Positions 26,548 to 42,367 of a stretch of DNA of 64,000 bases are shown here, one piece after another. Positions within the stretch are counted from its first letter, which is position 1. Every line of letters starts with the position of its first letter. The stretch comes from an uncultured Ruegeria sp. (GTDB lineage Bacteria > Pseudomonadota > Alphaproteobacteria > Rhodobacterales > Rhodobacteraceae), in contig CAXXPZ010000034.1 in the NCBI GenBank assembly GCA_963422555.2, positions 13,069 through 77,068 on the forward strand. The letters are read 5' to 3'. The notes under the pieces are model-generated. The model was not told the DNA's origin, made no database searches, and saw only the letters and a list, made by a program, of their open reading frames with translations. The position numbers and the translations under genes are program-made.

Positions 26548-27616
26548 AGCTCTATTCGTACATCGTATTGATGCTCATTCCAGCGAGGGCGCTGGCGAGG
26601 CAGTGCCTCGGGGTTGGGTTCTTCTGCAGGACTATGAGATGGAACCAGCGCAGATAGCTGGCAAGATATTTTGTGGCGATCCCCCGGCGGTTACCAATAA
26701 ACCCCTTGAGGCGGGAGTGACGGTTGTTGACGTTTTGGATATGGAGTTCGCCGCGAACGCGTTCACCGGAAGACTGGTTGAGCGCTTCGTGGCTGACACA
26801 CAGGGCGGCAGCACACGGCGGATAGCTGGTGCCCCCATCGGTCACCAGCAGTGCATCCTTGTCCATGACCGGCGCGAGAACCTCCCGCAGAGCGGCAGCA
26901 TTGACCGCAGGCAGGACGGCACTAACGGTCGTGCCGGAGCGATCTGTCGCGACCAGAACCGGCACCTGCTCATCGGACAGGCCCCGCTTTGTTGCCTTGC
27001 CCCCGCGCTTTCGGGCCTTTCGGTCCGGCTTTTTTGCAGAGGATTTGCCTTCCGTGGCCCGTGTCCAAACACGATCCCCTTTGCGGCTTTCAAGAAAATA
27101 GGTTTCGTCGGCCTCGACAATGCCCTTCAGTTTTTCGGCGGTGGATTTGATCCCGGCAAGGAAGCGGTGTCGCCAGCGAAAGGCGGTGCTCCCGGCTATG
27201 CCACAGCGCTTTGCCGAAACTGCCACCGTATCGCCATTGGCGAGGCATTCGCTGAACGTCAGCCAAAGATCCTTGCGGTGCAGGCCGCTCAGTGGTGTAC
27301 CCGTCACCGCTCCAAAGGTTCGATTGCAGGATCGGCAAAGATAGCGTTGCATTCCCCGCGACTTGCCATTGGCCACTGCACCGTGTGCGCCGCAATGCGG
27401 GCAGGTCCGGTCTTCTCCAACACCCATCTCAACTGCCGCAACCGAGGCTTCACCCGCTGGGCGACCGGCCAGAACCTCACCGACCTCTACTTTCTGCGCC
27501 TCGCTCAACGTGTCGACCTCCGACAACCAGGCAAGAAAGGCTTTCCGGTCCATAATGCGCATCCTCCTGTATTTCAGACAAAATATAACACATCAATACG
27601 ATGTGCGAATAGAGCT
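26548..27616 (-). mobile_element. IS1595-family element, copy 1
   Basis: ~25-bp IR GCTCTATTCGTACATCGTATTGATG; 8-bp duplication TTTCCTTT at 26540-26547 and 27617-27624. Confidence 0.93.
26552..27562 (-). CDS. IS1595 family transposase
   Basis: CPHCG..YLCRSC zinc ribbon, VEADETY, LVTDG, HIQNVNNRHSRLK. Confidence 0.93.
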   Translation of the reverse strand: MRIMDRKAFLAWLSEVDTLSEAQKVEVGEVLAGRPAGEASVAAVEMGVGEDRTCPHCGAHGAVANGKSRGMQRYLCRSCNRTFGAVTGTPLSGLHRKDLWLTFSECLANGDTVAVSAKRCGIAGSTAFRWRHRFLAGIKSTAEKLKGIVEADETYFLESRKGDRVWTRATEGKSSAKKPDRKARKRGGKATKRGLSDEQVPVLVATDRSGTTVSAVLPAVNAAALREVLAPVMDKDALLVTDGGTSYPPCAAALCVSHEALNQSSGERVRGELHIQNVNNRHSRLKGFIGNRRGIATKYLASYLRWFHLIVLQKNPTPRHCLASALAGMSINTMYE

Positions 27617-30725: not shown

Positions 30726-31044
30726 TCAGAAGGTCATGTTCCCCATGGCCTTCTGATAATGTGCATTGAACGCCATGATCGGATGCTCTGACTGCGACGA
30801 ACAGGCGTCGTCCACCACCAGCGCACCATGTTGCAACGCGCCGCTTTCAAGGCCGCGCTGGACCGAGTCGACGATCGGCCCGTCCTCGGCAAAGGTGGTG
30901 GTTCGGTGCTGCAGGATGATTTCACGCTCGACTGTGTTGGGCTGTCCGTGGGGCAGCCACCAGTCGACCTCGATCTTGGTTTCGTTCACGCTCAGGGGTT
31001 TCCACCGATAGGTATTCACGATCCCACCGGGGTACACTTGCAGG
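30726..31044 (-). pseudogene. Rieske non-heme iron oxygenase alpha subunit, C-terminal fragment
   Basis: LQVYPGG..FAEDGPIVDSVQRGLES..SEHPI..FNAHY; in frame with the 41572-42367 fragment once the insert is removed. Confidence 0.85.
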
Positions 31045-31324
31045 TGTGACACGTCAGAAATAATGATCAATGCGGGACTATGCCGGACTACCCCGGATCG
31101 GGCGGATGAAAGTCGCCCAAATCCTTTATAACATTGAGCCTGGACGTTGATCCGGGCAGCCAGACCAGAAGTGCGGTCGATACCGCCCGCGACAGAGAAA
31201 ATGATCATTCAGGCGCGTTGCAGGGTCGTTGCAGGGCTATATACGGGGTTTTTTCCGCGCCAGAAACGGGCGCTGATCGGCCCGGAAATCCGCATGTAAC
31301 CGAGGCGGTTCCAGCGCCAGTGGA

Positions 31325-31807
31325 TCAGACAGTTTCAGCGGGCTTTCCCCGGTCGCCCGGGGGATCCATACGGAGGATATCCCAGGGGGGCATCCAGCCG
31401 TTACCGGTCTCGTCCGGCCATCCCTGGCGGGCGGCCTCCTCATCGGGGATATTGAAAGTGCCGGTGCATCCATTGCGCTCACACCAGGCATAGAGGTGTC
31501 GGGCCGCGTCCTGAAGCGAAGCGACCAGCCGCTCACGCTCCGCGCCGACCGGCCCGTCCGGACGTGTCGCGCGGCCTTCATAACGGCTCTGGCTACAGAG
31601 ATCGTTCCAGAGATGCCCGATCGCGATGCGAAGCCTCGTGCCGTAATGACCGTGTTCCCGGGGGTGCTTGTCAGCCAGCACGTCCCGCAATGATTGCAGC
31701 GACTGCGCGACCGGTGTTCTGGTATCCTGTCCGAATCCGTATCTGCAGAGCGGATCATTGTGGTCTGTAAGGTGACCTTTCAGGGGGCCGTCGGTTTTCC
31801 ATGTCAT
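31325..31807 (-). CDS. Hypothetical protein near element left end
   Basis: 160-aa ORF (MTWKTDG..) whose ATG overlaps the stop of the upstream truncated ORF. Confidence 0.55.
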   Translation of the reverse strand: MTWKTDGPLKGHLTDHNDPLCRYGFGQDTRTPVAQSLQSLRDVLADKHPREHGHYGTRLRIAIGHLWNDLCSQSRYEGRATRPDGPVGAERERLVASLQDAARHLYAWCERNGCTGTFNIPDEEAARQGWPDETGNGWMPPWDILRMDPPGDRGKPAETV

Positions 31808-32015
31808 TGTTTCAGCCATTCGACCAGTCTTTCGATGATCCTCGTCATTCCCGCCTCGCCAAAGCGTTCAAGGTTGACGCGGTTGCCCCCGGTGATGGCG
31901 TGAGCGTAGTCAAGATACCCTGCGCGGGCAAGGGCAGTTGCGGTGGCGTGTCCGCGCAATTGGAACAGAGCGGCCTGATCCATGCCCAGGCCGGCGGCCT
32001 CGGCGTCAACCAGGC
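31804..32015 (-). pseudogene. 3' remnant of a hypothetical gene truncated by IS3
   Basis: Open frame LVDAEAAGLGMDQAALFQLRGH..RLVEWLKQ* running from the IS3 boundary, coupled by ATGA to the next ORF. Confidence 0.45.
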
Positions 32016-32065
32016 TGAACCGCCCCGGGTTTACCGGAGAGTAAAACTCTCAAAGGATGAACCCT

Positions 32066-32398
32066 ATGGAGAAGAAAAAGTCACCCCCGAAGTACACGGC
32101 TGAGTTTCGCGCCCGCGGCGTTCGGCTTTATAAAGACCATCGCGCGGATTACGCCAGTGACAACGCGGCCTACCACGCGATCGCGCCAAAGCTCGGCTGC
32201 TCGCCGGACAGCCTCAGAGTCTGGTGTCAGCAGGCTGAGCGCGATGCCGGCGAACGCGATGGGCTGACCAGCGAGCAGAAGGCACGTCTGAAAGCCTTGG
32301 AGCGTGAGAACAAGGAATTGCGCACGGCCAATGAGATCCTGAAGAAGGCGAGCGCGTATTTCGCTCAGGCGGAGCTCGACCGCCCATTCCGGAAATGA
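32066..32398 (+). CDS. IS3 OrfA
   Basis: KYTAEFRARGV HTH and LERENKELRTANEILKKASAYFAQAELDR leucine zipper. Confidence 0.9.
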   Translation: MEKKKSPPKYTAEFRARGVRLYKDHRADYASDNAAYHAIAPKLGCSPDSLRVWCQQAERDAGERDGLTSEQKARLKALERENKELRTANEILKKASAYFAQAELDRPFRK

Positions 32399-33297
32399 TC
32401 GCATTCATCGATAATCATCGGGACGAGTTCGGTGTCGGGTCGATCTGCAGGGTGCTGCCGATCGCGCCATCGTCCTATTATGCACATCTGTCTATCCGGC
32501 GCAGCCCGGACAAAGCCTCGGATCGGGCCAGGAAGGACGATAAGGATGCGCGGGAAATCCAGCGCGTCTTTGATGCCAGCCGGGGACGCTATGGCGCGCG
32601 CAAGGTATGGCATCAACTGCGCCGGGAAGGCTATGACATCGCACGCTGCACGGTGGAACGCCTGATGAAAGTCATGGGGTTGCAGGGTGTTACACGCGGC
32701 AAGAAGAAGACCACGATCCCGGACCCTGCACAGGCCTGCCCGGAAGACAAGGTCAATCGCGCGTTCACGGCCACCGCACCAAACCAGCTCTGGGTCTCCG
32801 ACTTCACCTATGTGTCGACCTGGGCCGGGATGGTCTACGTGGCCTTTGTCATTGATGTCTTTGCGCGCAAGATCGTGGGCTGGCGCGTGTCCACGTCCAT
32901 GGCCACCAGCTTCGTGCTGGACGCGCTGAACCAGGCGATCTGCCAACGAATACCATCACAGGCAGACGGGCTCATTCACCATTCGGACAGGGGGTCGCAA
33001 TACCTGGCGGTTCGGTACACAGAGCGGTTGGCCCAGGCCGGGATCGACGCATCGGTCGGCAGCGTCGGAGACAGCTATGACAACGCCCTGGCAGAAAGCA
33101 TCATCGGCCTGTTCAAGACCGAAGTCATTGAGTTCTTCGGCACATGGAAAACGGTTGGCCAGGTTGAGTGGGAAACCCTGGACTGGGTCAGCTGGTACAA
33201 CAACAAGCGGCTGCACGGCGCGATCGGGCACCGGCCGCCACAAGAACTGGAGGACGCATTCTATGCAAACCTGAACACCCTTGATAAAGTCGCCTGA
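32395..33297 (+). CDS. IS3 OrfB integrase-like DDE domain
   Basis: WVSDFTY, HHSDRGSQY and DNALAES motifs. Confidence 0.93.
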   Translation: MIAFIDNHRDEFGVGSICRVLPIAPSSYYAHLSIRRSPDKASDRARKDDKDAREIQRVFDASRGRYGARKVWHQLRREGYDIARCTVERLMKVMGLQGVTRGKKKTTIPDPAQACPEDKVNRAFTATAPNQLWVSDFTYVSTWAGMVYVAFVIDVFARKIVGWRVSTSMATSFVLDALNQAICQRIPSQADGLIHHSDRGSQYLAVRYTERLAQAGIDASVGSVGDSYDNALAESIIGLFKTEVIEFFGTWKTVGQVEWETLDWVSWYNNKRLHGAIGHRPPQELEDAFYANLNTLDKVA

Positions 33298-34056
33298 GTC
33301 TTGAGCAAAAAAGTCTCCGGTAAACCCGGGGCGGTTCAGAACTTCGGCCTCGGCAATCCGCAATTCGGGACCGGTGATCTGCGCATCGGCAACCAGCCGC
33401 TGTCGGATTTTCCCGGTGCCAAAGCCACCATCCTGCGCGGTCCCGATCCCGCCTGGCCCGCCAATGTGGACACCATCGAGGGCAGCGGCGTGCTCAAGGG
33501 CCGGGCCTACACCACGCGCCGCAGCAGCGCGGGGACCACCCGGGTTGATTTCGACTTCATCATGCGGAGCTTCGAGATCGACCGCAAGTCGGGCAAACGC
33601 CGCGCGATACCGCGCCGCGTGGAAATCGGCTGGCGCAGGGTGGGTGTACGCGAGGCCTGGACCAGGGGGGAGGTGACCCTGAAGAACCCCAACGCGCCGG
33701 CCGATGCCTACCGCCGGACCATCCGCGTCCGCCTGCCCGCCGCCGCCACGTGGCAGGTCCGGGTCCGCCGCTTCGAGACAGCCTCGACCGCCGATAACGA
33801 GGTCGACGAGATCTCCTGGACCGCGCTGCGCTCCTTCCAGCCCGATACCGCCGACTATACCGGCCAGACCCGCGTCCGCCTGCGCCTGCCCGCCTCCGTC
33901 CGGGCCTCCGGGCAACTGCCTGTGGTGCACGCCATCGCGCATCAGCCCGTGCCCGCCGGCACCACCGCGGACGCGGTTCCCGGGGCCACGAGCAACCCGG
34001 CCTGGATTTACCTGGCCTTCCTGCGCGGCCAGTACATCCAGGGCCGCCTCGCCTGG

Positions 34057-35478
34057 CTACTCGATTCACACATTTCCAGCGATCCCATATCCGAGTTGGA
34101 TTGACCTAAATTGATAGAGACCGCGCAACATAACCACGGGGCCCGGTTTCCCATAATATCCGGTCCAGCCACCGAGACGGGCGCACACCCAGGCTGCAAA
34201 GGCGAGCGACCCCTTTGGATGCGGGTTTTTCTGCTTTTCGGTCTTACCTTCAAGCGAAGCGGATACGGCCTCAAGGACCGGTTGATCCTGCGCCTCGAAT
34301 ACATCCTCCAGCGGGCGTTTGCCTGCGCCATCCCGGTCCTGCACGAGCTGCATGCAGGATATCCCCGCGATAAGCGTCATTGCGCAAAGAGTTTTGAAGG
34401 GTGCGGGCTCCATAGACACGTTTTCGATGTCGAAACCTTTGGTCTTAATGGTCCGGAAAACCTGCTCAATGACCCAGCGCCGACGGTAGAGTTGAGTGAT
34501 CCATCGTGCCTGTTCGAATGTTTCGACCCGATGGCTGGTCAGCAGGCGCCAACGTGCAGGCTGCACACCTACTGGCGGGTCGATTTCTCGCGCCTCAACG
34601 ATGTAGACGGACGTGCTGGCGGGAACGCCTTGTTCAATCGGTCTGTTTTTGGGGTGCGGCAGGGTAACGCAAGCGAAACGAACGCCAATCCGGGCCGTGC
34701 GCTTCTTCTGCCCGGGTCGCGCGGGCAACTCGACCGTATGTTCTTGCTGCGGCGTGCCCTCAAGGCTGAAAAAGAGCTTGCCTGTATCATCGGAAAGATT
34801 GCGATCATGGGACGCTCGGACCAGGACGTCCACGCCTTTTGGGCGGCATGCAAACATCTCGAAGATGTCCCCTTCACGGTCGGCTATAACCGTGACATTC
34901 GCAGCCGCGTTCAGAACGGCGGCACTTGTTTGCATGCTTTCAAGCCAGCGATAGCTCTCTTTTTCACGAAGAGGTCGATTTTTGGGCGGCTTCTTGCGGC
35001 CGCCAGAGCGTTCAATGAGTTGCATGTCAACCGCTCCGAGCAACGTGCCCTGTTCGGCCTCCACCGCGATCGTAGCATGGCCGACAATGCAGTTTCCCGA
35101 CCCATCATCACGAAAGCTCGTTGTGTCTTGAATCGCCAGAACATGCAGACCGTCAACGCGCCCGGACGTGACCTTCCCGGCCTTTTCAACAATCTTTTTC
35201 ACTGTCACCTTCTCGTTCCTCAAAAACCGACCAAAGCGAACCTCACCTGCGCGATTGCCGCCGACGCTACGCACCGAAATACCACGAGGACCGACCTCGA
35301 CAAGACGACCATGCAAAAAGCGTTCAGCCTGATCCAAACGACAATCACCAAAATGCGAACTCGAGTTTTGCATCTCTACCCCCTTGAAACAGCAAGACAG
35401 GAGATAGAACCGATATGACAAAACGGCAAGGTTCAGAACCTAATTCCGCGTGCGGGAAAAGATGTGTGCATACAGTAG
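34057..35478 (-). mobile_element. IS4-family element, copy A
   Basis: IR CTACT..AT.CACACAT; 10-bp duplication CCTCGCCTGG (34047-34056, 35479-35488). Confidence 0.92.
34066..35421 (-). CDS. IS4 family (IS50/Tn5-like) transposase
   Basis: AIQDTT, IADREGD, YRRRWVIEQVFRTIK (YREK motif), ARLGGW. Confidence 0.92.
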   Translation of the reverse strand: MSYRFYLLSCCFKGVEMQNSSSHFGDCRLDQAERFLHGRLVEVGPRGISVRSVGGNRAGEVRFGRFLRNEKVTVKKIVEKAGKVTSGRVDGLHVLAIQDTTSFRDDGSGNCIVGHATIAVEAEQGTLLGAVDMQLIERSGGRKKPPKNRPLREKESYRWLESMQTSAAVLNAAANVTVIADREGDIFEMFACRPKGVDVLVRASHDRNLSDDTGKLFFSLEGTPQQEHTVELPARPGQKKRTARIGVRFACVTLPHPKNRPIEQGVPASTSVYIVEAREIDPPVGVQPARWRLLTSHRVETFEQARWITQLYRRRWVIEQVFRTIKTKGFDIENVSMEPAPFKTLCAMTLIAGISCMQLVQDRDGAGKRPLEDVFEAQDQPVLEAVSASLEGKTEKQKNPHPKGSLAFAAWVCARLGGWTGYYGKPGPVVMLRGLYQFRSIQLGYGIAGNV

Positions 35479-36716
35479 CCTCGCCTGGGGGCTGGGCCTG
35501 CCCGATGCCCGTGACTTGCCGAGGGCCGCGTGCCGGGGATCATCGACCTGCCCACCATCGCGGCCTGGGCGCGATGGTGCGACACCAACAAACTCACATG
35601 CAATCTCGTGCTCGATCGCAAGATGCCCGTCAGCGCGGTGATCAACACAATCTGCCAATGCGGCCGCGCCAGCCCGACACGGGCCAGCGGCAGGCGCGGC
35701 GTTGTCTGGGACGATCCCGCCACCCCCGCAACCGCGCTTGTCACACCGGGCAATATCGTCCAGGGCAGCTTCACCGTCACATGGTCCGGCGAGCAGGTGG
35801 CCGACGAGATCGCCGTTCGCTATCTCGATCCGGATGCTGACTGGCAATACCAGACCCTGCGCCGCCCCATGCCGGGCGTCACCGCGCAATCTCGTGCCCC
35901 GCCGCACCGCCACCGTCACGCTGGGCGGTGTCACCGACGCCGCGCAGGCCGCCGTGGAGGCCAACCTCCAGGCCGCGCGCCAGATCTATCACCGCCGCCG
36001 CATGGCCTGGGAGATGAGCGCCGAAGGCCTCAACATCGCGCGCGGTGACGTGGTGCGCCTCACCCACAGCCTGATCGACGGCGGGATGACCGGGCAGCTT
36101 GCCGCCGTCGCGCCGCCAGACCCCGACACGCCGGAGCGCTGGGATCTCGGCCGCAGCTTCGAGATCCCCGGGGACGAGGACTGGTTTGCCATGCTGCGCC
36201 TCGCCGATGGTCGTCTGCACACCAGCCCGATCGAGGCCGAGGGTCCCCTGGTCCGGCCCGCCACGCCGCTGCCCGCAGACTGGGCGGGTGAGGATAGCGA
36301 GCCGTCAGACGTGCTCTGGCGGGTCTATCCCGGCGATGCCCCACCCGCACCGGTCCGGATCGTCGGTGTTGATCCGGTCTCCGACACCCGCATCCGGCTC
36401 GAGGCGATCGACGAGGTCGCCGCCTATCACAATGCCGCCACCTCCGATCTGACCGCGCCCCTGCCCCTGCCGGCACTGCAAAGCCCGCGCGTGCTCTCCG
36501 CACAGGCCTCCGACCGCACGCTGCCCGATGAGCGCATCGGGATCACCCTGCGCCTCACCACCGCCGGGCCCTGGCGCGGCGCGACCGTGAGCACCCACGA
36601 CAGCCATGGCTGGCGCGTTGTTGCCGAAATCACCGACGCCACCACGATCTGCACCTGGACCACCGATGATGATCCGGGCAGCGAGATCTGGATCGAGATC
36701 ACCCCCGGCAGCCACG

Positions 36717-38138
36717 CTACTGTATGCACACATCTTTTCCCGCACGCGGAATTAGGTTCTGAACCTTGCCGTTTTGTCATATCGGTTCTATCTCCTGTCT
36801 TGCTGTTTCAAGGGGGTAGAGATGCAAAACTCGAGTTCGCATTTTGGTGATTGTCGTTTGGATCAGGCTGAACGCTTTTTGCATGGTCGTCTTGTCGAGG
36901 TCGGTCCTCGTGGTATTTCGGTGCGTAGCGTCGGCGGCAATCGCGCAGGTGAGGTTCGCTTTGGTCGGTTTTTGAGGAACGAGAAGGTGACAGTGAAAAA
37001 GATTGTTGAAAAGGCCGGGAAGGTCACGTCCGGGCGCGTTGACGGTCTGCATGTTCTGGCGATTCAAGACACAACGAGCTTTCGTGATGATGGGTCGGGA
37101 AACTGCATTGTCGGCCATGCTACGATCGCGGTGGAGGCCGAACAGGGCACGTTGCTCGGAGCGGTTGACATGCAACTCATTGAACGCTCTGGCGGCCGCA
37201 AGAAGCCGCCCAAAAATCGACCTCTTCGTGAAAAAGAGAGCTATCGCTGGCTTGAAAGCATGCAAACTAGTGCCGCCGTTCTGAACGCGGCTGCGAATGT
37301 CACGGTTATAGCCGACCGTGAAGGGGACATCTTCGAGATGTTTGCATGCCGCCCAAAAGGCGTGGACGTCCTGGTCCGAGCGTCCCATGATCGCAATCTT
37401 TCCGATGATACAGGCAAGCTCTTTTTCAGCCTTGAGGGCACGCCGCAGCAAGAACATACGGTCGAGTTGCCCGCGCGACCCGGGCAGAAGAAGCGCACGG
37501 CCCGGATTGGCGTTCGTTTCGCTTGCGTTACCCTGCCGCACCCCAAAAACAGACCGATTGAACAAGGCGTTCCCGCCAGCACGTCCGTCTACATCGTTGA
37601 GGCGCGAGAAATCGACCCGCCAGTAGGTGTGCAGCCTGCACGTTGGCGCCTGCTGACCAGCCATCGGGTCGAAACATTCGAACAGGCACGATGGATCACT
37701 CAACTCTACCGTCGGCGCTGGGTCATTGAGCAGGTTTTCCGGACCATTAAGACCAAAGGTTTCGACATCGAAAACGTGTCTATGGAGCCCGCACCCTTCA
37801 AAACTCTTTGCGCAATGACGCTTATCGCGGGGATATCCTGCATGCAGCTCGTGCAGGACCGGGATGGCGCAGGCAAACGCCCGCTGGAGGATGTATTCGA
37901 GGCGCAGGATCAACCGGTCCTTGAGGCCGTATCCGCTTCGCTTGAAGGTAAGACCGAAAAGCAGAAAAACCCGCATCCAAAGGGGTCGCTCGCCTTTGCA
38001 GCCTGAGTGTGCGCCCGTCTCGGTGGCTGGACCGGATATTATGGGAAACCGGGCCCCGTGGTTATGTTGCGCGGTCTCTATCAATTTAGGTCAATCCAAC
38101 TCGGATATGGGATCGCTGGAAATGTGTGAATCGAGTAG
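36717..38138 (+). mobile_element. IS4-family element, copy B (inverted relative to A)
   Basis: Same 1422-bp sequence as copy A; own 10-bp duplication GGCAGCCACG (36707-36716, 38139-38148). Confidence 0.92.
36774..38129 (+). pseudogene. IS4 transposase with nonsense mutation
   Basis: TGG>TGA at 38004-38006 removes the last ~41 aa relative to copy A. Confidence 0.85.
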
Positions 38139-38804
38139 GGCAGCCACGCGGCCCCCACGGGCGCGGTCTATACCGCAAAACACAGTCTTGTCGGCGACAG
38201 GACCGTACCCATCGCAGCGCCCACCGGCTTCGCGGTCGAGATCCTCGCCGATGGCAGCCGGCGCTTTGTTGCCACGCCGCCCGCACACCCCGGTGTCGTC
38301 GGCTACGCCCTGCGCTACGGTCCCGCATCCGCCGCCGCAAGCTGGGCCGCGCTCACGCCCCTGGTCCATGGCCGGATCACGCGCCTGCCGGTCGAGACGC
38401 GCCTGCCCCCCGCAGGCCGATGGCGCTTCGCCATCGCCGCCCTGGACCGGGACGGCATCCCCGGCACACCCGCCTTTACCGGACCCGTCGATCTGCCCGA
38501 CGCCGTCAAACTGCCCGTGACCCAATATGCGTTCCGCGCCACGGCCGCAGGCGCGCTCCCGCGACACCCGGCCAGCGGCGGCACCACCAGCGATGCCCAT
38601 GTGCCAAAGGACTGGTCCCGCACACCTGTCAGCCTGACCGCGCTGACGCCCTGGCAGTGGATCAGCGAACGCGCCGGGCGCAGCGGCTGCGGGCCATGGA
38701 CGAACTGGAGCGCGCCCGCGCTGTGGTCGACGCTCGGTGCCGATGGCGATCCCGGGGCGGATGGCAAGCCCGGTGCGGACGGCAAGGACGGGCGGGACGG
38801 GCGG

Positions 38805-39452
38805 GACGGCCCGGGCGTGGAGTTGATCTTCCGCCGCACCCGCACGGCCAGACCTCCCGCTACGCCCCAAACCACGGCCAGCCAGCGCCGCATAGATGAT
38901 CACGTGCCCGCCGGCTGGTTCGACGATGCGCCGGGCGTGACCACATCCGAGCCCTGGCTCTGGGTCTCCGAGCGGCGCGGCACCAGCGGCAACTGGGGCA
39001 CCTTCTCCGCCCCCGCGCTCTGGGCGCGCTACAGCTATGATGGCCGGGACGGGACGGATGGCCCACCGGGCAAAAAGGGCGACAGGGGCGACAGGGGAGG
39101 TCCGGGACCGCGCGGTGAAACCGGGGCGGACGGCCCGGGCGTGGAGTTCATATTCAGGCTCACAGGCACACCGATCCGGCCCGCAACACCCCACACCAGC
39201 GCCAGCCAGCGCCGCATAGATGATCACATCCCCCGGGACTGGGACGATGATCCCTCCGGGGTCTCCACCGCGAGACCCTATCTCTGGGCCTGCCGCCGCA
39301 CAGGATCAAGCGGCAACTGGAGCGCCTTCTCCGCCCCCGCGCTCTGGGCGCGCTACAGTGCGGACGGGGCAGATGGCCGGGACGGGACGGATGGCACACC
39401 GGGCAAAAAAGGCGACAAGGGTGACAAGGGCGACAGGGGCGACAAGGGTGAC
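38805..39452 (+). repeat. Tandem ~324-bp (108-aa) repeat with Gly-X-Y linkers in tail fibre
   Basis: GACGGCCCGGGCGTGGAGTT at 38805 and 39129; repeated ASQRRIDDH..SAPALWARYS..DGRDGTDG..GKKGD. Confidence 0.85.
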
Positions 39453-40380
39453 GGGGGTTCGCGCGGCGCGGGGATGTTCTCCGCCGAGGTCAGTTCGAGG
39501 GGCTGGCAGGATTATCGCGCAAATCTTGCAACACCCAACAACAATGTGATCGGTGACGTGGTTACGCTTGTCGATGCCGCGGGCGGCTGGGCCGAGACCC
39601 GGGCCTGGTCAGGGCGGGCCTGGGTCAGGGTCGAGCATGTGATCGACGGCAACACCGTCATCCCCGGCACCCTGCTGGCCAATGCCATCGCCACAGACCA
39701 GATCGAGGCCCGTCACCTCAAAGCCGATCAAGCGGTCATCTCCAGCGGCCTGCAGCTCGGGGGCGGCATCATCACGTTCGGACATCTCGACAACAATCTG
39801 ATCGGCGGTATCGCCCAGGGCGCGCGCTTCAGGATATCCGTGTCCGGGGGAACCTCCGCAAGGACCTATCGCGGGAGTGTGAAGGTCCTGCCCCGCGTGG
39901 CCGGCACCTCCGAGATCGTGGTGCGGCGCGACAGCGCCAACGAGGTGATGCGATACTCGGCGGACCTGGTCAACATATCCTTTACCCCGTCGAAGGTCTG
40001 GAAGGTGATCCGGACGCGCACCAGTCAGGATGACGAGAGGTCCGGGCGCTTCGCGGCTTTGCACAAAGCGTATCTCCGTATTGAAATCCGGCTTGACAGC
40101 ACGGTGATTGCAACCAAAAGCCTCACCTTCACAGACAATTCATTTACACTCCGGAATCCGGTGATTTCGGGGACGCTGTCCAAAAGCCTGACGCCACTCG
40201 CCCGCCAGAAGCGGCTCACAGCCCGCGCAAGCATCACTGTGCCCAGCACCAGCAAACAGCGGTATATCGGACCCAGCAGCAGCAGGCGGGGGTCATCGGT
40301 TCCGACGCGGTGGAGCTTCAGCGCCCAGGTGGCACTCACAGCCCGCGAAACGCGGCCCTTCGCCTGACGGGAGGCCTCCG

Positions 40381-41025
40381 ATGACCCAGACGACGCTCAC
40401 CTACGATACCTTTGTCCAGGCCCTGACCGGGCTTGCGGAACAGGGCCTGCCCCATGGCATCCTGCCCTGGACCGCGTTTCCCGAAGATGCCATCCCGCCC
40501 AGGGCGATCACCCGGCCCATGTGGGACGGCTATACATGGAACCCGCCGCAATTCGCGGCCGCCGCCGATGCCGGTCTCTATGGCGCGGCGGACGCGGAGG
40601 CGGCAGCGAAGCCCGCATGGGCCGCCCTTGTGGCAGAAGCCCGCCGCCTGGACCACGCGGAGGCGCGCAGGCTCAAACAGGCCGAACTGGCCGAAGAACT
40701 GGCCCGCCACACCACGTTCCGGCACGCAGGCCGCCTCTGGCAGGGCGATCCCGAAAGCGCCGCCGACATCACCACCGCCGCGCTCCGCGCCGGCCAGGCA
40801 GGGACCTGGCCAGGGGACCATGTCTGGATCGACGCCGCAAATGCCCGCATCCCCATGACCGCCGCCGACATCACGGCACTCGCCGCCGCACTCGCCGCAT
40901 GGCGAACCGCCAGACGCCTGCGCGCACGTACCCTCAAGGACGCCATTCTGGCGGCCACAACAGCCGAGCAGATCAACGCGATCGATGTTACCGTGGGATG
41001 GCCGGATGAAAGTGACGCGGAGTGA
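40381..41025 (+). CDS. DUF4376 domain phage tail-associated protein
   Basis: GRLWQGDPES..WIDAANARIPMT..ARTLKDAILAA..INAIDV..W pattern; directly after the fibre gene with GGAGG RBS. Confidence 0.7.
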   Translation: MTQTTLTYDTFVQALTGLAEQGLPHGILPWTAFPEDAIPPRAITRPMWDGYTWNPPQFAAAADAGLYGAADAEAAAKPAWAALVAEARRLDHAEARRLKQAELAEELARHTTFRHAGRLWQGDPESAADITTAALRAGQAGTWPGDHVWIDAANARIPMTAADITALAAALAAWRTARRLRARTLKDAILAATTAEQINAIDVTVGWPDESDAE

Positions 41026-41081
41026 CAAGATAACACCCCACATGACATACACGCTGACAACCCACAGAAAAGGAAAGCCAA

Positions 41082-41375
41082 ATGAAACCCGACGAAGATC
41101 TGGTCAACAAAATTGAACGACCACGCCCCGGCATCCGGCCCGTTGTGGTGCTGCTCTACCCCCACCATGACTATTGTTGTGTTGAAGATCCAATTTACGA
41201 CACACGGACCGAGTGCCGCTTCAAGCATCTGACCTTGCTCAACGAGGCGCTGATAAACCATCAGGTGATGTTCACCGAGGTGACGGGCATTGTCGGCGTG
41301 ACAGGGAAGCCCGGTGAACCCGGAACGGTATACGTACGCAAGCAAAAGCTTTCAGAGACGCCCGATGAGAACTGA
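41082..41375 (+). CDS. Hypothetical protein near element right end
   Basis: 97-aa ORF with AAGGA RBS, lower GC than the tail genes. Confidence 0.45.
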   Translation: MKPDEDLVNKIERPRPGIRPVVVLLYPHHDYCCVEDPIYDTRTECRFKHLTLLNEALINHQVMFTEVTGIVGVTGKPGEPGTVYVRKQKLSETPDEN

Positions 41376-41571
41376 CATAATCATAGGCGGCGCGTGGTCG
41401 AATCCCGATTCCCGGCAAACGGTCTCTTGGCTGCTGTCTCCCGCGCTACTGCGCTACTGCTCCGGTGAAAGCCCGAGCCCAACCAGAATTTAGAGAAGTT
41501 TTTGGGTAGAAAAATCGCCCGGATTTATCACCAAAGTGTCGCGAATTGATCATTATTTTTGTCGCGCTACA

Positions 41572-42367
41572 GCAGGGCAAACAGGGGAAAGAACCACCAA
41601 GTCAGGAATTTGTCGGTCCGCGCTGCGGGGTCTGCGACATAGGCATATGATTTCTGCGAATCCGGCCGGGCCGGGCTGGCGTGCCGGATGCCATAATCGA
41701 ACCCGCGCGTCCGGTATTGCTCGGGGTCGACGACGCCGGTGGTCAGGGTCTTGTGAACCACGGCGCAGTGGTAACATTCGTTGAAATTCTCGGCGACAAC
41801 TTTCCAATTTGCGCGGGCCAGACGTTCCGTTCTGTCGGCGCGCTTATAGCTGGCAAGGTTGGGGGCGTAGTCCGAGATTTCACGCAACGCGCTGCCAGCC
41901 TGTTCCGTCAAACCGCGCGCATCGGGATCGAGATTGACCAGAACCAGCCCAAAGAACAGATCAACCTGAACCGGGCGCAACCTGTATTGGCTTTTGTCAA
42001 AACCCGGAAACGCCGTGGCATTTGGCGCGGCGCGCAGTTGGCCGGTCGTGTCATAGGTCCAGGCATGGTAGGGGCAGGTCATCTTTTTGGTGCAGCCCTT
42101 GCCGTTCAACAACTCGTGCCCGCGATGGACGCAAACGTTGTAAAAGGCCCGAACCGCGCCATCCTGGCCCCGAATGATGATGACCGAGACACCGCTGACG
42201 TCCTCGACCACATAATCGCCGAAATCGGGAATATCGGTTTCATGACCGATCAGGTGCCATGACCGTTTGAATATCCGGTCCTGTTCCGCGGCAAAGACAC
42301 TTTGGTCGCAATAAGCCCGCGACGGAAGCGACCGGTACACGCCGCCTGAAAATGACATCTCGCCCAT
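41572..42367 (-). pseudogene. Rieske non-heme iron oxygenase alpha subunit, N-terminal fragment
   Basis: CVHRG..CPYHAW Rieske motif, NWKVVAENFNECYHCAVVH mononuclear iron site; interrupted after FPLFAL. Confidence 0.88.

What the first reader, a model, noticed from the sequence alone, without database searches (positions are those of the whole stretch)
31045..41571. 10.5-kb transposable phage-like element with TGT...ACA ends and a 5-bp duplication splits a Rieske oxygenase gene
Seen: the Rieske gene breaks at FAL|QVYPG with GCAGG duplicated on both sides. The insert begins TGTGACACGTCAGAAATAATGATCAAT and ends, in reverse complement, TGTAGCGCGACAAAAATAATGATCAAT. Its cargo is phage tail material (TipJ-like, collagen-like fibre, DUF4376). 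Known: TG(T)...(A)CA ends with 5-bp duplications mark the MuA/TnsB DDE clade (Mu, Tn7, Tn5053). Inference: this is the remnant of a siphovirus-tailed transposable prophage (RcapMu/D3112-like lifestyle) whose symmetrical TGT/ACA ends look Tn7/Tn5053-like. It could be an undescribed lineage of transposon-phage hybrids, or a non-autonomous tail-carrying satellite mobilised in trans. No transposase of this clade remains inside.
Basis: partly seen in the sequence, partly recalled or inferred. Interest (0 to 1): 0.85.

Follow-up and report, generated by a model that had tools for sequence, protein, structure and literature searches.

The report
Decayed Mu-like prophage with rearranged genome
A jumping-phage insertion splits a Rieske oxygenase gene; it is likely the insertion-sequence-gutted remnant of a roughly 42-kb Mu-like phage whose intact relatives have an unusual gene order and a transposase lacking Mu's enhancer-binding domain, so it is a variant of a known kind rather than a new transposon-phage hybrid.

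Summary
The insert is one of many copies: this genome holds 9 left and 12 right ends at 17 different target sites, and no two copies seen share an internal deletion. About 4.2 kb is insertion sequence; an IS3 without target duplication joins the MuF tip to mid-TipJ. Intact relatives (38–43 kb, same ends, 5-bp duplications) encode MuA/MuB-type transposition proteins and a full Mu-type head. The transposase groups with phages RS1/HS6/RS138, and a clade with TnsB+TniA is rejected (p-AU 4e-32). RcapMu's own ends are nearly as symmetric, so the 'Tn7-like' ends are ordinary. The satellite reading has no support. What is less ordinary: the repressor-to-MuF half is inverted, putting the packaging genes at one end (not matching Mu, B3 or KS10); the transposase clade lacks the enhancer-binding domain; hosts carry 1 to more than 10 copies. 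Verdict: a new variant of Mu-like transposable phage, here a decayed copy.

The parts
30726..31044 (-). 3' part of the host Rieske ring-hydroxylating oxygenase alpha subunit gene (QVYPG... to stop), including the duplicated 5 bp
   Evidence: Ring_hydroxyl_A; empty-site frame; intact orthologues
31040..31044 (.). Left copy of the 5-bp target duplication GCAGG
31045..31071 (+). Left phage end (TGT + first predicted transposase-binding site at 31051-31071), followed by 10-bp tandem repeats at 31072-31096
   Evidence: 9 copies in the genome
31189..31209 (+). Second predicted transposase-binding site, 145 bp into the left end (Mu-like spaced L sites)
   Evidence: profile score 22 bits against 0.09 background hits per 400 bp; weaker hit at the same position in G467
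31325..31819 (-). orf164, unknown function, last gene of the leftward arm
   Evidence: 67% identical homologue in the same place in G467; no Pfam family, no PHROG below E 0.09
31804..32015 (-). 3' tip (residues 389-458) of the MuF minor head gene
   Evidence: 97% identical to the full MuF on contig C15 (Phage_Mu_F)
32016..33338 (+). IS3-family element (orfA 32057-32398, orfB 32395-33297) without target duplication, at the inferred ~31-kb deletion
33339..34056 (+). TipJ/central tail fibre piece 1 (starts near codon 282 of the full 1,652-codon frame on C14)
   Evidence: FNIII-A_GpJ, phrog_31
34057..35478 (-). IS4-family element 1 with 10-bp duplication
   Evidence: DDE_Tnp_1
35479..36716 (+). 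TipJ piece 2, frameshifted
   Evidence: Phage-tail_3, phrog_31; 29- and 10-bp extra letters against contigs of public runs
36717..38138 (+). IS4-family element 2 with 10-bp duplication
38139..40367 (+). TipJ C-terminal part with collagen-like repeats and PB4-spike-like fibre domain
40381..41025 (+). DUF4376 tail-fibre-associated gene, intact
   Evidence: 61% identical to G467
41082..41375 (+). orf97, unknown function, 9 near-identical copies in the genome
41545..41571 (-). Right phage end (TGTAGCGCG..., same first 9 bases as the RcapMu and B3 right ends)
   Evidence: 12 copies in the genome, one cut to ~20 bp
41572..41576 (.). Right copy of the target duplication GCAGG
41572..42367 (-). 5' part of the host Rieske oxygenase gene (MGEMS...FAL)
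   Evidence: Rieske and Ring_hydroxyl_A

Best explanation
The 10.5-kb insert has Mu-type ends and a 5-bp duplication and is likely the decayed remnant of a ~42-kb Mu-like transposable siphovirus prophage that jumped into the Rieske gene and later lost about 31 kb, probably by IS3-mediated deletion. Shown: ends, duplication, split gene, IS content, many copies at unrelated sites, intact relatives with the same ends. Inferred: a phage-encoded DDE transposase (TnpA) with its AAA+ partner (TnpB) bound the ~21-bp end sites, nicked at the CA-3' ends and joined them to a target with a 5-bp stagger, as MuA/MuB do; repeated replicative transposition in the surviving host lineage gave at least 17 insertion events; IS3 and IS4 elements then invaded the copies, and recombination between IS3 copies (or adjacent deletion) removed repressor, transposition, packaging, head and most tail genes here. 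The parent's order, read from G467, G492 and G493, is end<-orf164<-MuF<-portal<-terminase<-gp27/gp26<-Mor<-accessory genes<-TnpB<-TnpA<-cro | CI-> ... lysin<- | protease->capsid->tail->end: Mu order with the repressor-to-MuF half inverted. Its TnpA lacks the N-terminal enhancer-binding (I-alpha) domain and is predicted to transpose without an enhancer. This copy cannot move or make particles alone; with both ends intact it could be moved in trans if an intact copy survives.
For: 9 left and 12 right ends 99-100% alike (one left end 85%), 17 different flanking 5-mers, no similarity among flanks. Other copies hold protease, capsid, gp36, gpG, tail tube, tape measure, full TipJ, CI, cro, Dam, lysin, full MuF and a TnpB fragment 66% identical to G467. 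G467:C28:220177-262010 is a 41,834-bp copy with the same ends and a GAAAC duplication, encoding rve+Mu-transpos_C TnpA with D212/D271/E307, AAA_22+MuB_C TnpB, DUF3164, gp27, TerL, Portal_Mu, MuF. G492 has 11 left and 10 right ends, 6 shared 5-mers; G493 has 4 copies, all 4 duplications paired. Same gene order in G467, 2 of 2 mapped G492 stretches and 4 of 4 G493 copies; an end follows MuF also in L113. TnpA groups with RS1/HS6/RS138/MuM16-1 (SH-aLRT 99; 100 without B3, IS3 and RS138). The window's IS3 has no duplication, whereas 20 of 47 full IS3 copies have one. I-alpha: 0 of 79 rows in one clade (SH-like 96) nested among 39 rows that have it.
Against: TnpA, terminase and portal are not found in G000 (73% complete), so the parent's transposase is read from relatives 60-78% identical, not from this phage. 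No contig of the 4 runs laid spans the IS3 junction, so the internal deletion rests on the G000 assembly. 27 of 47 IS3 copies also lack a duplication, so its absence is common here. Trees are quick or FastTree searches with long branches; the careful search did not finish. I-alpha loss is not tied one-to-one to gene order: 5 of 72 viral loci have the divergent order and keep I-alpha. No virion, induction or transposition assay.
Confidence: 0.87

Rival explanations
1. The copy is really a longer or full prophage, and the assembler joined two IS3 copies inside it, so the 31-kb deletion is an artefact.
For: G000 is 73% complete with 13% of its bases in high-copy repeats; 7 of 21 ends run to a contig end within 6.7 kb. 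In public runs the contig over the MuF tip is up to 5.8 kb long, and contigs over the TnpB fragment run on 609, 1,551 and 2,920 bp upstream in 3 of 4 runs, at depths above host flanks where these are covered, so intact early regions likely exist in near-identical populations.
Against: C93 is a second two-ended copy with its own, different IS3 junction, and C73 has a third; the window copy also has two private IS4 insertions with 10-bp duplications and frameshifts, so it is dead either way.
Confidence: 0.07
2. A non-autonomous, tail-carrying satellite or mini-Mu that spreads in trans.
For: Both ends intact; tail-fibre DNA is in 6-9 copies while head genes are in 1.
Against: No two copies seen share a deletion; distances from an end to the first IS differ in every copy; TipJ here lacks its first ~280 codons and is broken twice; full-length autonomous relatives have the same ends; tail genes lie next to the right end, which is enough to explain their retention.
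Confidence: 0.04
3. A Tn7/Tn5053-like transposon that captured phage tail genes (transposon-phage hybrid).
For: TGT...ACA ends and 5-bp duplication; RS1-type TnpA lies on the Tn552/TnsB/TniA side of the split from MuA.
Against: AU test rejects lineage+TnsB+TniA as a clade (p 4e-32); best hits are phage transposases at 33-40% against 22-26% for TnsB, TniA, Tn552; no TnsA, TniQ or resolvase among 31 proteins scanned; no shared target; RcapMu, RS138 and B3 have TGT ends too.
Confidence: 0.02

Closest known systems
Rhodovulum phage RS1 / Rhodobacter phage RC1, Ralstonia phage RS138, Pseudoalteromonas phage HS6, Shewanella phage MuM16-1
   Same: Same transposase clade (rve + Mu-transpos_C, 33-40% identity), MuB-type ATPase, DUF3164, Mor, gp27, Mu portal, MuF, siphovirus tail.
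   Different: RS1, RS138 and HS6 have Mu order with the repressor near one end (only the first 5.9 kb of MuM16-1 was seen); RS1 and MuM16-1 TnpA keep the I-alpha domain (RS138 and HS6 score weakly).
Rhodobacter phage RcapMu; roseophages vB_RhkS_P1 and vB_PeaS-P1
   Same: Alphaproteobacterial Mu-like siphoviruses; near-symmetric TGTAG ends in RcapMu (20/27); long MuF 41% identical over 95% in RhkS_P1 and PeaS-P1; NlpC/P60-TipJ tail type.
   Different: Transposases belong to the D3112 (RcapMu) or MuA (RhkS, PeaS) clades; Mu gene order; I-alpha present.
Burkholderia phage KS10
   Same: MuF-portal-terminase at one end pointing outward, split from protease and capsid; central repressor; no I-alpha hit; capsid 38% identical.
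   Different: In KS10 the early operon points toward the head-tail genes; here it runs with the packaging genes. KS10 TnpA is D3112-type, and the paper reports no TG...CA ends or direct repeats (PMC2628397, passages).
Pseudomonas phage B3 (Beetrevirus) and Leptospira transposable prophages
   Same: Two arms diverging from a central control region; capsid 38% identical to B3; B3 right end starts TGTAGCGCG; no enhancer-binding domain (B3; Leptospira: PMC8705779, passages).
   Different: B3 inverts only the early operon and keeps terminase-portal-MuF with the head genes; its TnpA is barely alignable; 6-bp repeats are reported for the B3/Tn552 type, 5 bp here.
Tn7 (TnsB) and Tn402/Tn5053 (TniA), Tn552
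   Same: Same DDE superfamily, TGT ends, AAA+ partner.
   Different: Not a clade with this transposase; no targeting or resolution module seen; this element is a phage with head and tail genes.

Membership tests
Mu-like transposable phages | TG...CA termini | tested here: met
   window and all 20 other G000 ends; 2 of 8 G493 ends start TT
Mu-like transposable phages | Short target duplication at unrelated sites | tested here: met
   17 different 5-mers, no flank similarity; paired duplications in G467, G492, G493
Mu-like transposable phages | DDE transposase followed by AAA+ ATPase | tested here: met
   met in G467, G492, G493; in G000 only a TnpB fragment; absent from the window copy
Mu-like transposable phages | Mu-type portal, MuF, gp27, protease I, gp36, gpG, Mor, DUF3164; 37-43 kb length | tested here: met
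   lengths 38.4-43.3 kb
Mu-like transposable phages | GemA | not tested
   not among the 31 proteins scanned; not searched for separately
Mu-like transposable phages | Replication by transposition; virion DNA with variable host ends | not testable with these tools
   needs induction and sequencing of particles
RS1/RS138/HS6-type (Tn552-related TnpA) phages | Transposase clade | tested here: met
   SH-aLRT 99-100
RS1/RS138/HS6-type (Tn552-related TnpA) phages | Mu gene order and N-terminal Mu DNA-binding domain | tested here: not met
RcapMu / D3112 group | D3112-type transposase and Mu order | tested here: not met
B3-like phages | Two arms around a central control region | tested here: met
B3-like phages | Only the early operon inverted; B3-type TnpA; 6-bp repeat | tested here: not met
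KS10 organisation | MuF-portal-terminase terminal and split from protease/capsid | tested here: met
KS10 organisation | Early operon co-directional with head-tail genes | tested here: not met
Tn7 family | TnsB-clade transposase | tested here: not met
   AU p 4e-32 for lineage+TnsB+TniA
Tn7 family | TnsA, TniQ/TnsD and a fixed attachment site | tested here: not met
   none among 31 proteins scanned, not every ORF; no shared target
Tn5053/Tn402 family | TniA clade, TniQ, resolvase and res-site targeting | tested here: not met
Phage satellite / natural mini-Mu | One conserved reduced genome found at several sites | tested here: not met
   breakpoints differ among copies

The most novel reading that the evidence does not exclude
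The parent defines an undescribed clade of transposable phages (about 79 transposase rows in the sample, in Rhodobacterales, Rhizobiales and unnamed metagenomes) with a fourth genome order beside Mu, B3 and KS10, in which the control region moved to the middle and the transposase then shed its enhancer-binding domain. These phages transpose enhancer-independently, tolerate a TT end, carry either siphovirus or contractile tails, and build up to 4-17 insertions per living host, acting as chromosome shufflers and gene disruptors.
Probability: 0.4. Interest if true: 0.55.

Novelty: new variant of a known kind. Interest (0 to 1): 0.36.

Why it matters
The insert itself is a dead prophage copy and an ordinary gene knock-out. 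The value lies in its lineage. It gives natural, closely related pairs of transposases with and without the enhancer-binding domain, and of genomes with terminal and central control regions, which makes a standing question about Mu testable: why the transpososome needs an enhancer and how gene order is constrained. Hosts that survive with 4 to more than 10 copies bear on target immunity and on how transposable phages rearrange chromosomes. It is not a new class of element.

Tried and rejected
Mu-transpos_C and Portal_Mu family searches in G000 were empty but had no positive control; the AAA_22 search gave 29 mostly unrelated ATPases. A DNA search with the left end found no real match in 60 relatives; G467 and G492 were not in that draw. 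Family-wide samples of 400 genomes gave 4 distant capsids and no lineage transposase (no control); the metagenome scan gave 2 distant hits. L108-L110 share terminase, portal and MuF, but no lineage transposase was found in that genome; left aside. My idea that I-alpha loss and central control region always go together was weakened: it holds for named phages (7 of 9 with a terminal repressor over the Pfam cut-off, 0 of 4 central) and for 10 class-wide genomes (10 of 10 with I-alpha, 5 of 5 mappable in Mu order), but 5 divergent-order viral loci keep the domain and the divergent order needs at least 2 changes on the tree. The end profile did not score inner right-end sites, although ~20-bp repeats are visible by eye in G492 and G493. 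No RNA holder listed. The function of orf164 and orf97 was not resolved. Three look-ups in earlier findings returned nothing. Two papers that may bear on novelty were not held: Toussaint and Van Gijsegem 2018 (title seen only in reference lists) and the 2023 ISME J survey of transposable phages (recalled, nothing seen).
Full report
1. Observation. GCAGG flanks the insert at 31040-31044 and 41572-41576; the insert (31045-41571) starts TGTGACACG and ends, reverse-complemented, TGTAGCGCG. The empty site restores a 369-aa Rieske oxygenase reading FAL-QVYPG. Among 69 congeners, 4 hold an 80-86% identical orthologue and all 4 are intact at this site. In run X1, host contigs reach 27-29 bp into both ends, just short of the 31 needed to count as bridging.

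2. Anatomy. From left to right: end, orf164, the last 70 codons of MuF (both pointing to the left end), an IS3 (32016-33338), TipJ from about codon 282 broken by two IS4-family elements, DUF4376, orf97, end. IS DNA with duplications is 4,187 bp; phage DNA is 6,340 bp, 15% of the intact relative. Both IS4 copies have 10-bp duplications; the IS3 has none and joins genes about 31 kb apart in the relative, which points to IS3-mediated deletion (inferred; 27 of 47 full IS3 copies also lack a duplication).

3. The genome. G000 (3.63 Mb, 73% complete, 13% of bases in repeats of depth 13 or more) has 9 left and 12 right ends, 99-100% alike apart from one 85% left end and truncated right ends. They carry 17 different flanking 5-mers, 4 of them paired against 0.12 expected, with no similarity among flanks. 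Distances from end to first IS differ in every copy. Across copies one finds full MuF, CI, cro, Dam, lysin, protease, capsid, gp36, gpG, tail tube, tape measure, full TipJ and a TnpB fragment, but no TnpA, terminase or portal. That gap may be partly an assembly effect: in 4 public runs of one study (one may be the source), phage arms in X1 lie at depth 30-45 against 4-6 for host flanks, and contigs over the MuF tip and TnpB fragment run on beyond the points where G000 has an IS; depth is not copy number and the run-on letters were not shown.

4. Intact relatives. A MuF search of 69 congeners found two close carriers. G467 (its transposase is named Ruegeria atlantica by the database) holds one 41,834-bp copy with the same ends and a GAAAC duplication. 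It encodes a 589-aa rve+Mu-transpos_C transposase, an AAA_22+MuB_C ATPase, DUF3164, a Mor-like protein, gp27, terminase, Mu portal, MuF and orf164. G492 has 11 MuF genes, 11 left and 10 right ends. G493, a Rhizobiaceae MAG reached through the portal, has 4 copies (three measured at 38.4-43.3 kb), all four duplications paired, two of them swapped between contigs; 2 of its 4 left ends begin TTT.

5. Gene order. All mapped copies read end<-orf164<-MuF<-portal<-terminase<-gp27<-Mor<-TnpB<-TnpA<-cro | CI-> ... | protease->capsid->tail->end (orf164 is missing from 2 of 4 G493 copies). RS1, RS138, HS6, RhkS_P1, PeaS-P1 and RcapMu have Mu order; B3 inverts the early operon only (PMC5977238, passages); KS10 has terminal MuF-portal-terminase but its early operon points the other way (PMC2628397, passages). 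The order here is Mu with the repressor-to-MuF half inverted. Split head modules are thus in print (KS10; Leptospira groups TG1, NN, TG2 in PMC8705779 section 2.5, figures and supplements not seen). I did not find this exact order described in 5 searches or in passages of PMC8224337 and PMC5488378, but two relevant papers were not held.

6. Transposase. Best phage hits are HS6, RC1/RS1, RS138 and MuM16-1 at 33-40%. A quick IQ-TREE of 21 proteins puts the lineage (100) inside that clade (99), apart from TnsB, TniA, Tn552, MuA, D3112 and RcapMu (careful search unfinished). With 15 rows, holding the lineage with TnsB and TniA costs 75 log-likelihood units, p-AU 4e-32. RcapMu's ends match each other at 20 of 27 positions against 22 here, and RcapMu and B3 share the first 9 bases of the right end. 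The left end has a second site 145 bp in, as spaced Mu L sites do (Mu layout recalled). The ends are therefore ordinary for these phages.

7. Enhancer-binding domain. PF02316 passes its cut-off in 7 of 9 named transposases from phages with a terminal repressor and in 0 of 4 with a central one; my own profile recovers 7 of 7 left-out training proteins and scores the 6 lineage proteins at 0.5 bits or less. Of 120 listed homologues (276 found), 115 entered a core-only tree with 7 references: one clade of 79 rows (SH-like 96) has no I-alpha (70 lack it, 9 have N-termini too short to score), nested among 39 rows that have it; 3 low-scoring rows fall outside. Against a strict link with gene order, 5 of 72 viral loci have divergent order and keep I-alpha, and that order needs at least 2 changes; one such locus, L201, lies next to the I-alpha-less clade, which fits inversion first, loss later, but does not show it. 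Order was seen for only four members of the clade with a transposase (G467, G492, G493, L202). Leptospira prophages with two arms are also reported to miss this domain (PMC8705779, passage). The role of I-alpha in binding the enhancer between c and ner is established Mu biology, recalled.

8. Mechanism. Shown: ends, duplication, broken host gene, IS content, multiplicity, intact relatives. Inferred: MuA/MuB-type integration and replicative spread, IS-driven decay, enhancer-independent transposition. Rivals: assembly artefact for the deletion (0.07), satellite (0.04), Tn7/Tn5053 hybrid (0.02).

9. Verdict. A decayed copy of a Mu-like transposable siphovirus; the lineage is a new variant by gene order and transposase domain make-up. 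Interest 0.36.

Noticed in passing
G493:C8:129708 and G493:C9:1993163 (L125, L127): Two prophage left ends begin TTT instead of TGT yet have matching 5-bp duplications, so an AA-3' end appears to have been transposed.
   Followed up: partly
G492 (L082-L103); G493 C5/C8: In G492 none of the four left-right pairs lying 44-58 kb apart shares a duplication, while 6 five-mers pair across contigs; in G493 two copies have swapped flanks. Chromosome shuffling between copies, or collapsed assembly.
   Followed up: partly
L037; G493 copies: The same control and head region comes with a contractile-type tail in L037 (read from translations); G493 copies give no hit to the siphovirus tail markers.
   Followed up: partly
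L238-L266 (25 of 72 viral loci): A separate clade of related transposable phages has late genes converging on the early operon, yet another gene order.
   Followed up: partly
G000 whole genome: Heavy IS load: 47 full IS3 and 35 full IS4-family copies of the two types found in the insert; 13% of bases in high-copy repeats.
   Followed up: partly
G000:C28:22862-23753 (L010): One left end is only 85% identical beyond ~170 bp, suggesting a second related phage; its duplication pairs with the C33 right end.
   Followed up: no
L004:3219-4595: MuF has a ~200-aa C-terminal extension with an HNHP motif, shared with RhkS_P1 and PeaS-P1; no Pfam match; possibly an enzymatic tip.
   Followed up: no
L064:13528-19221 and L063:13-1053 (G467): Accessory region between lysin and CI holds two Dam-type methylases, a KAP NTPase and a reverse-transcriptase-domain gene; possible defence cargo or an intron.
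   Followed up: no
G000 flanking 5-mers: Weak preference for G/C at positions 1 and 5 and A/T at 2 and 4 among 17 sites; not tested statistically.
   Followed up: partly
window 26552-27562: IS1595-family (ISXO2-like) transposase upstream of the RpiR-type regulator and aminotransferase cluster that lies next to the Rieske gene.
   Followed up: no
G000:C30:20500-27000 (L035): Another prophage early region (CI, cro, DnaA_C-type gene) partly similar to this phage; relation unclear.
   Followed up: partly
L108-L110 (G494): Three terminase-portal-MuF blocks related to this phage in one MAG with no lineage transposase found.
   Followed up: partly
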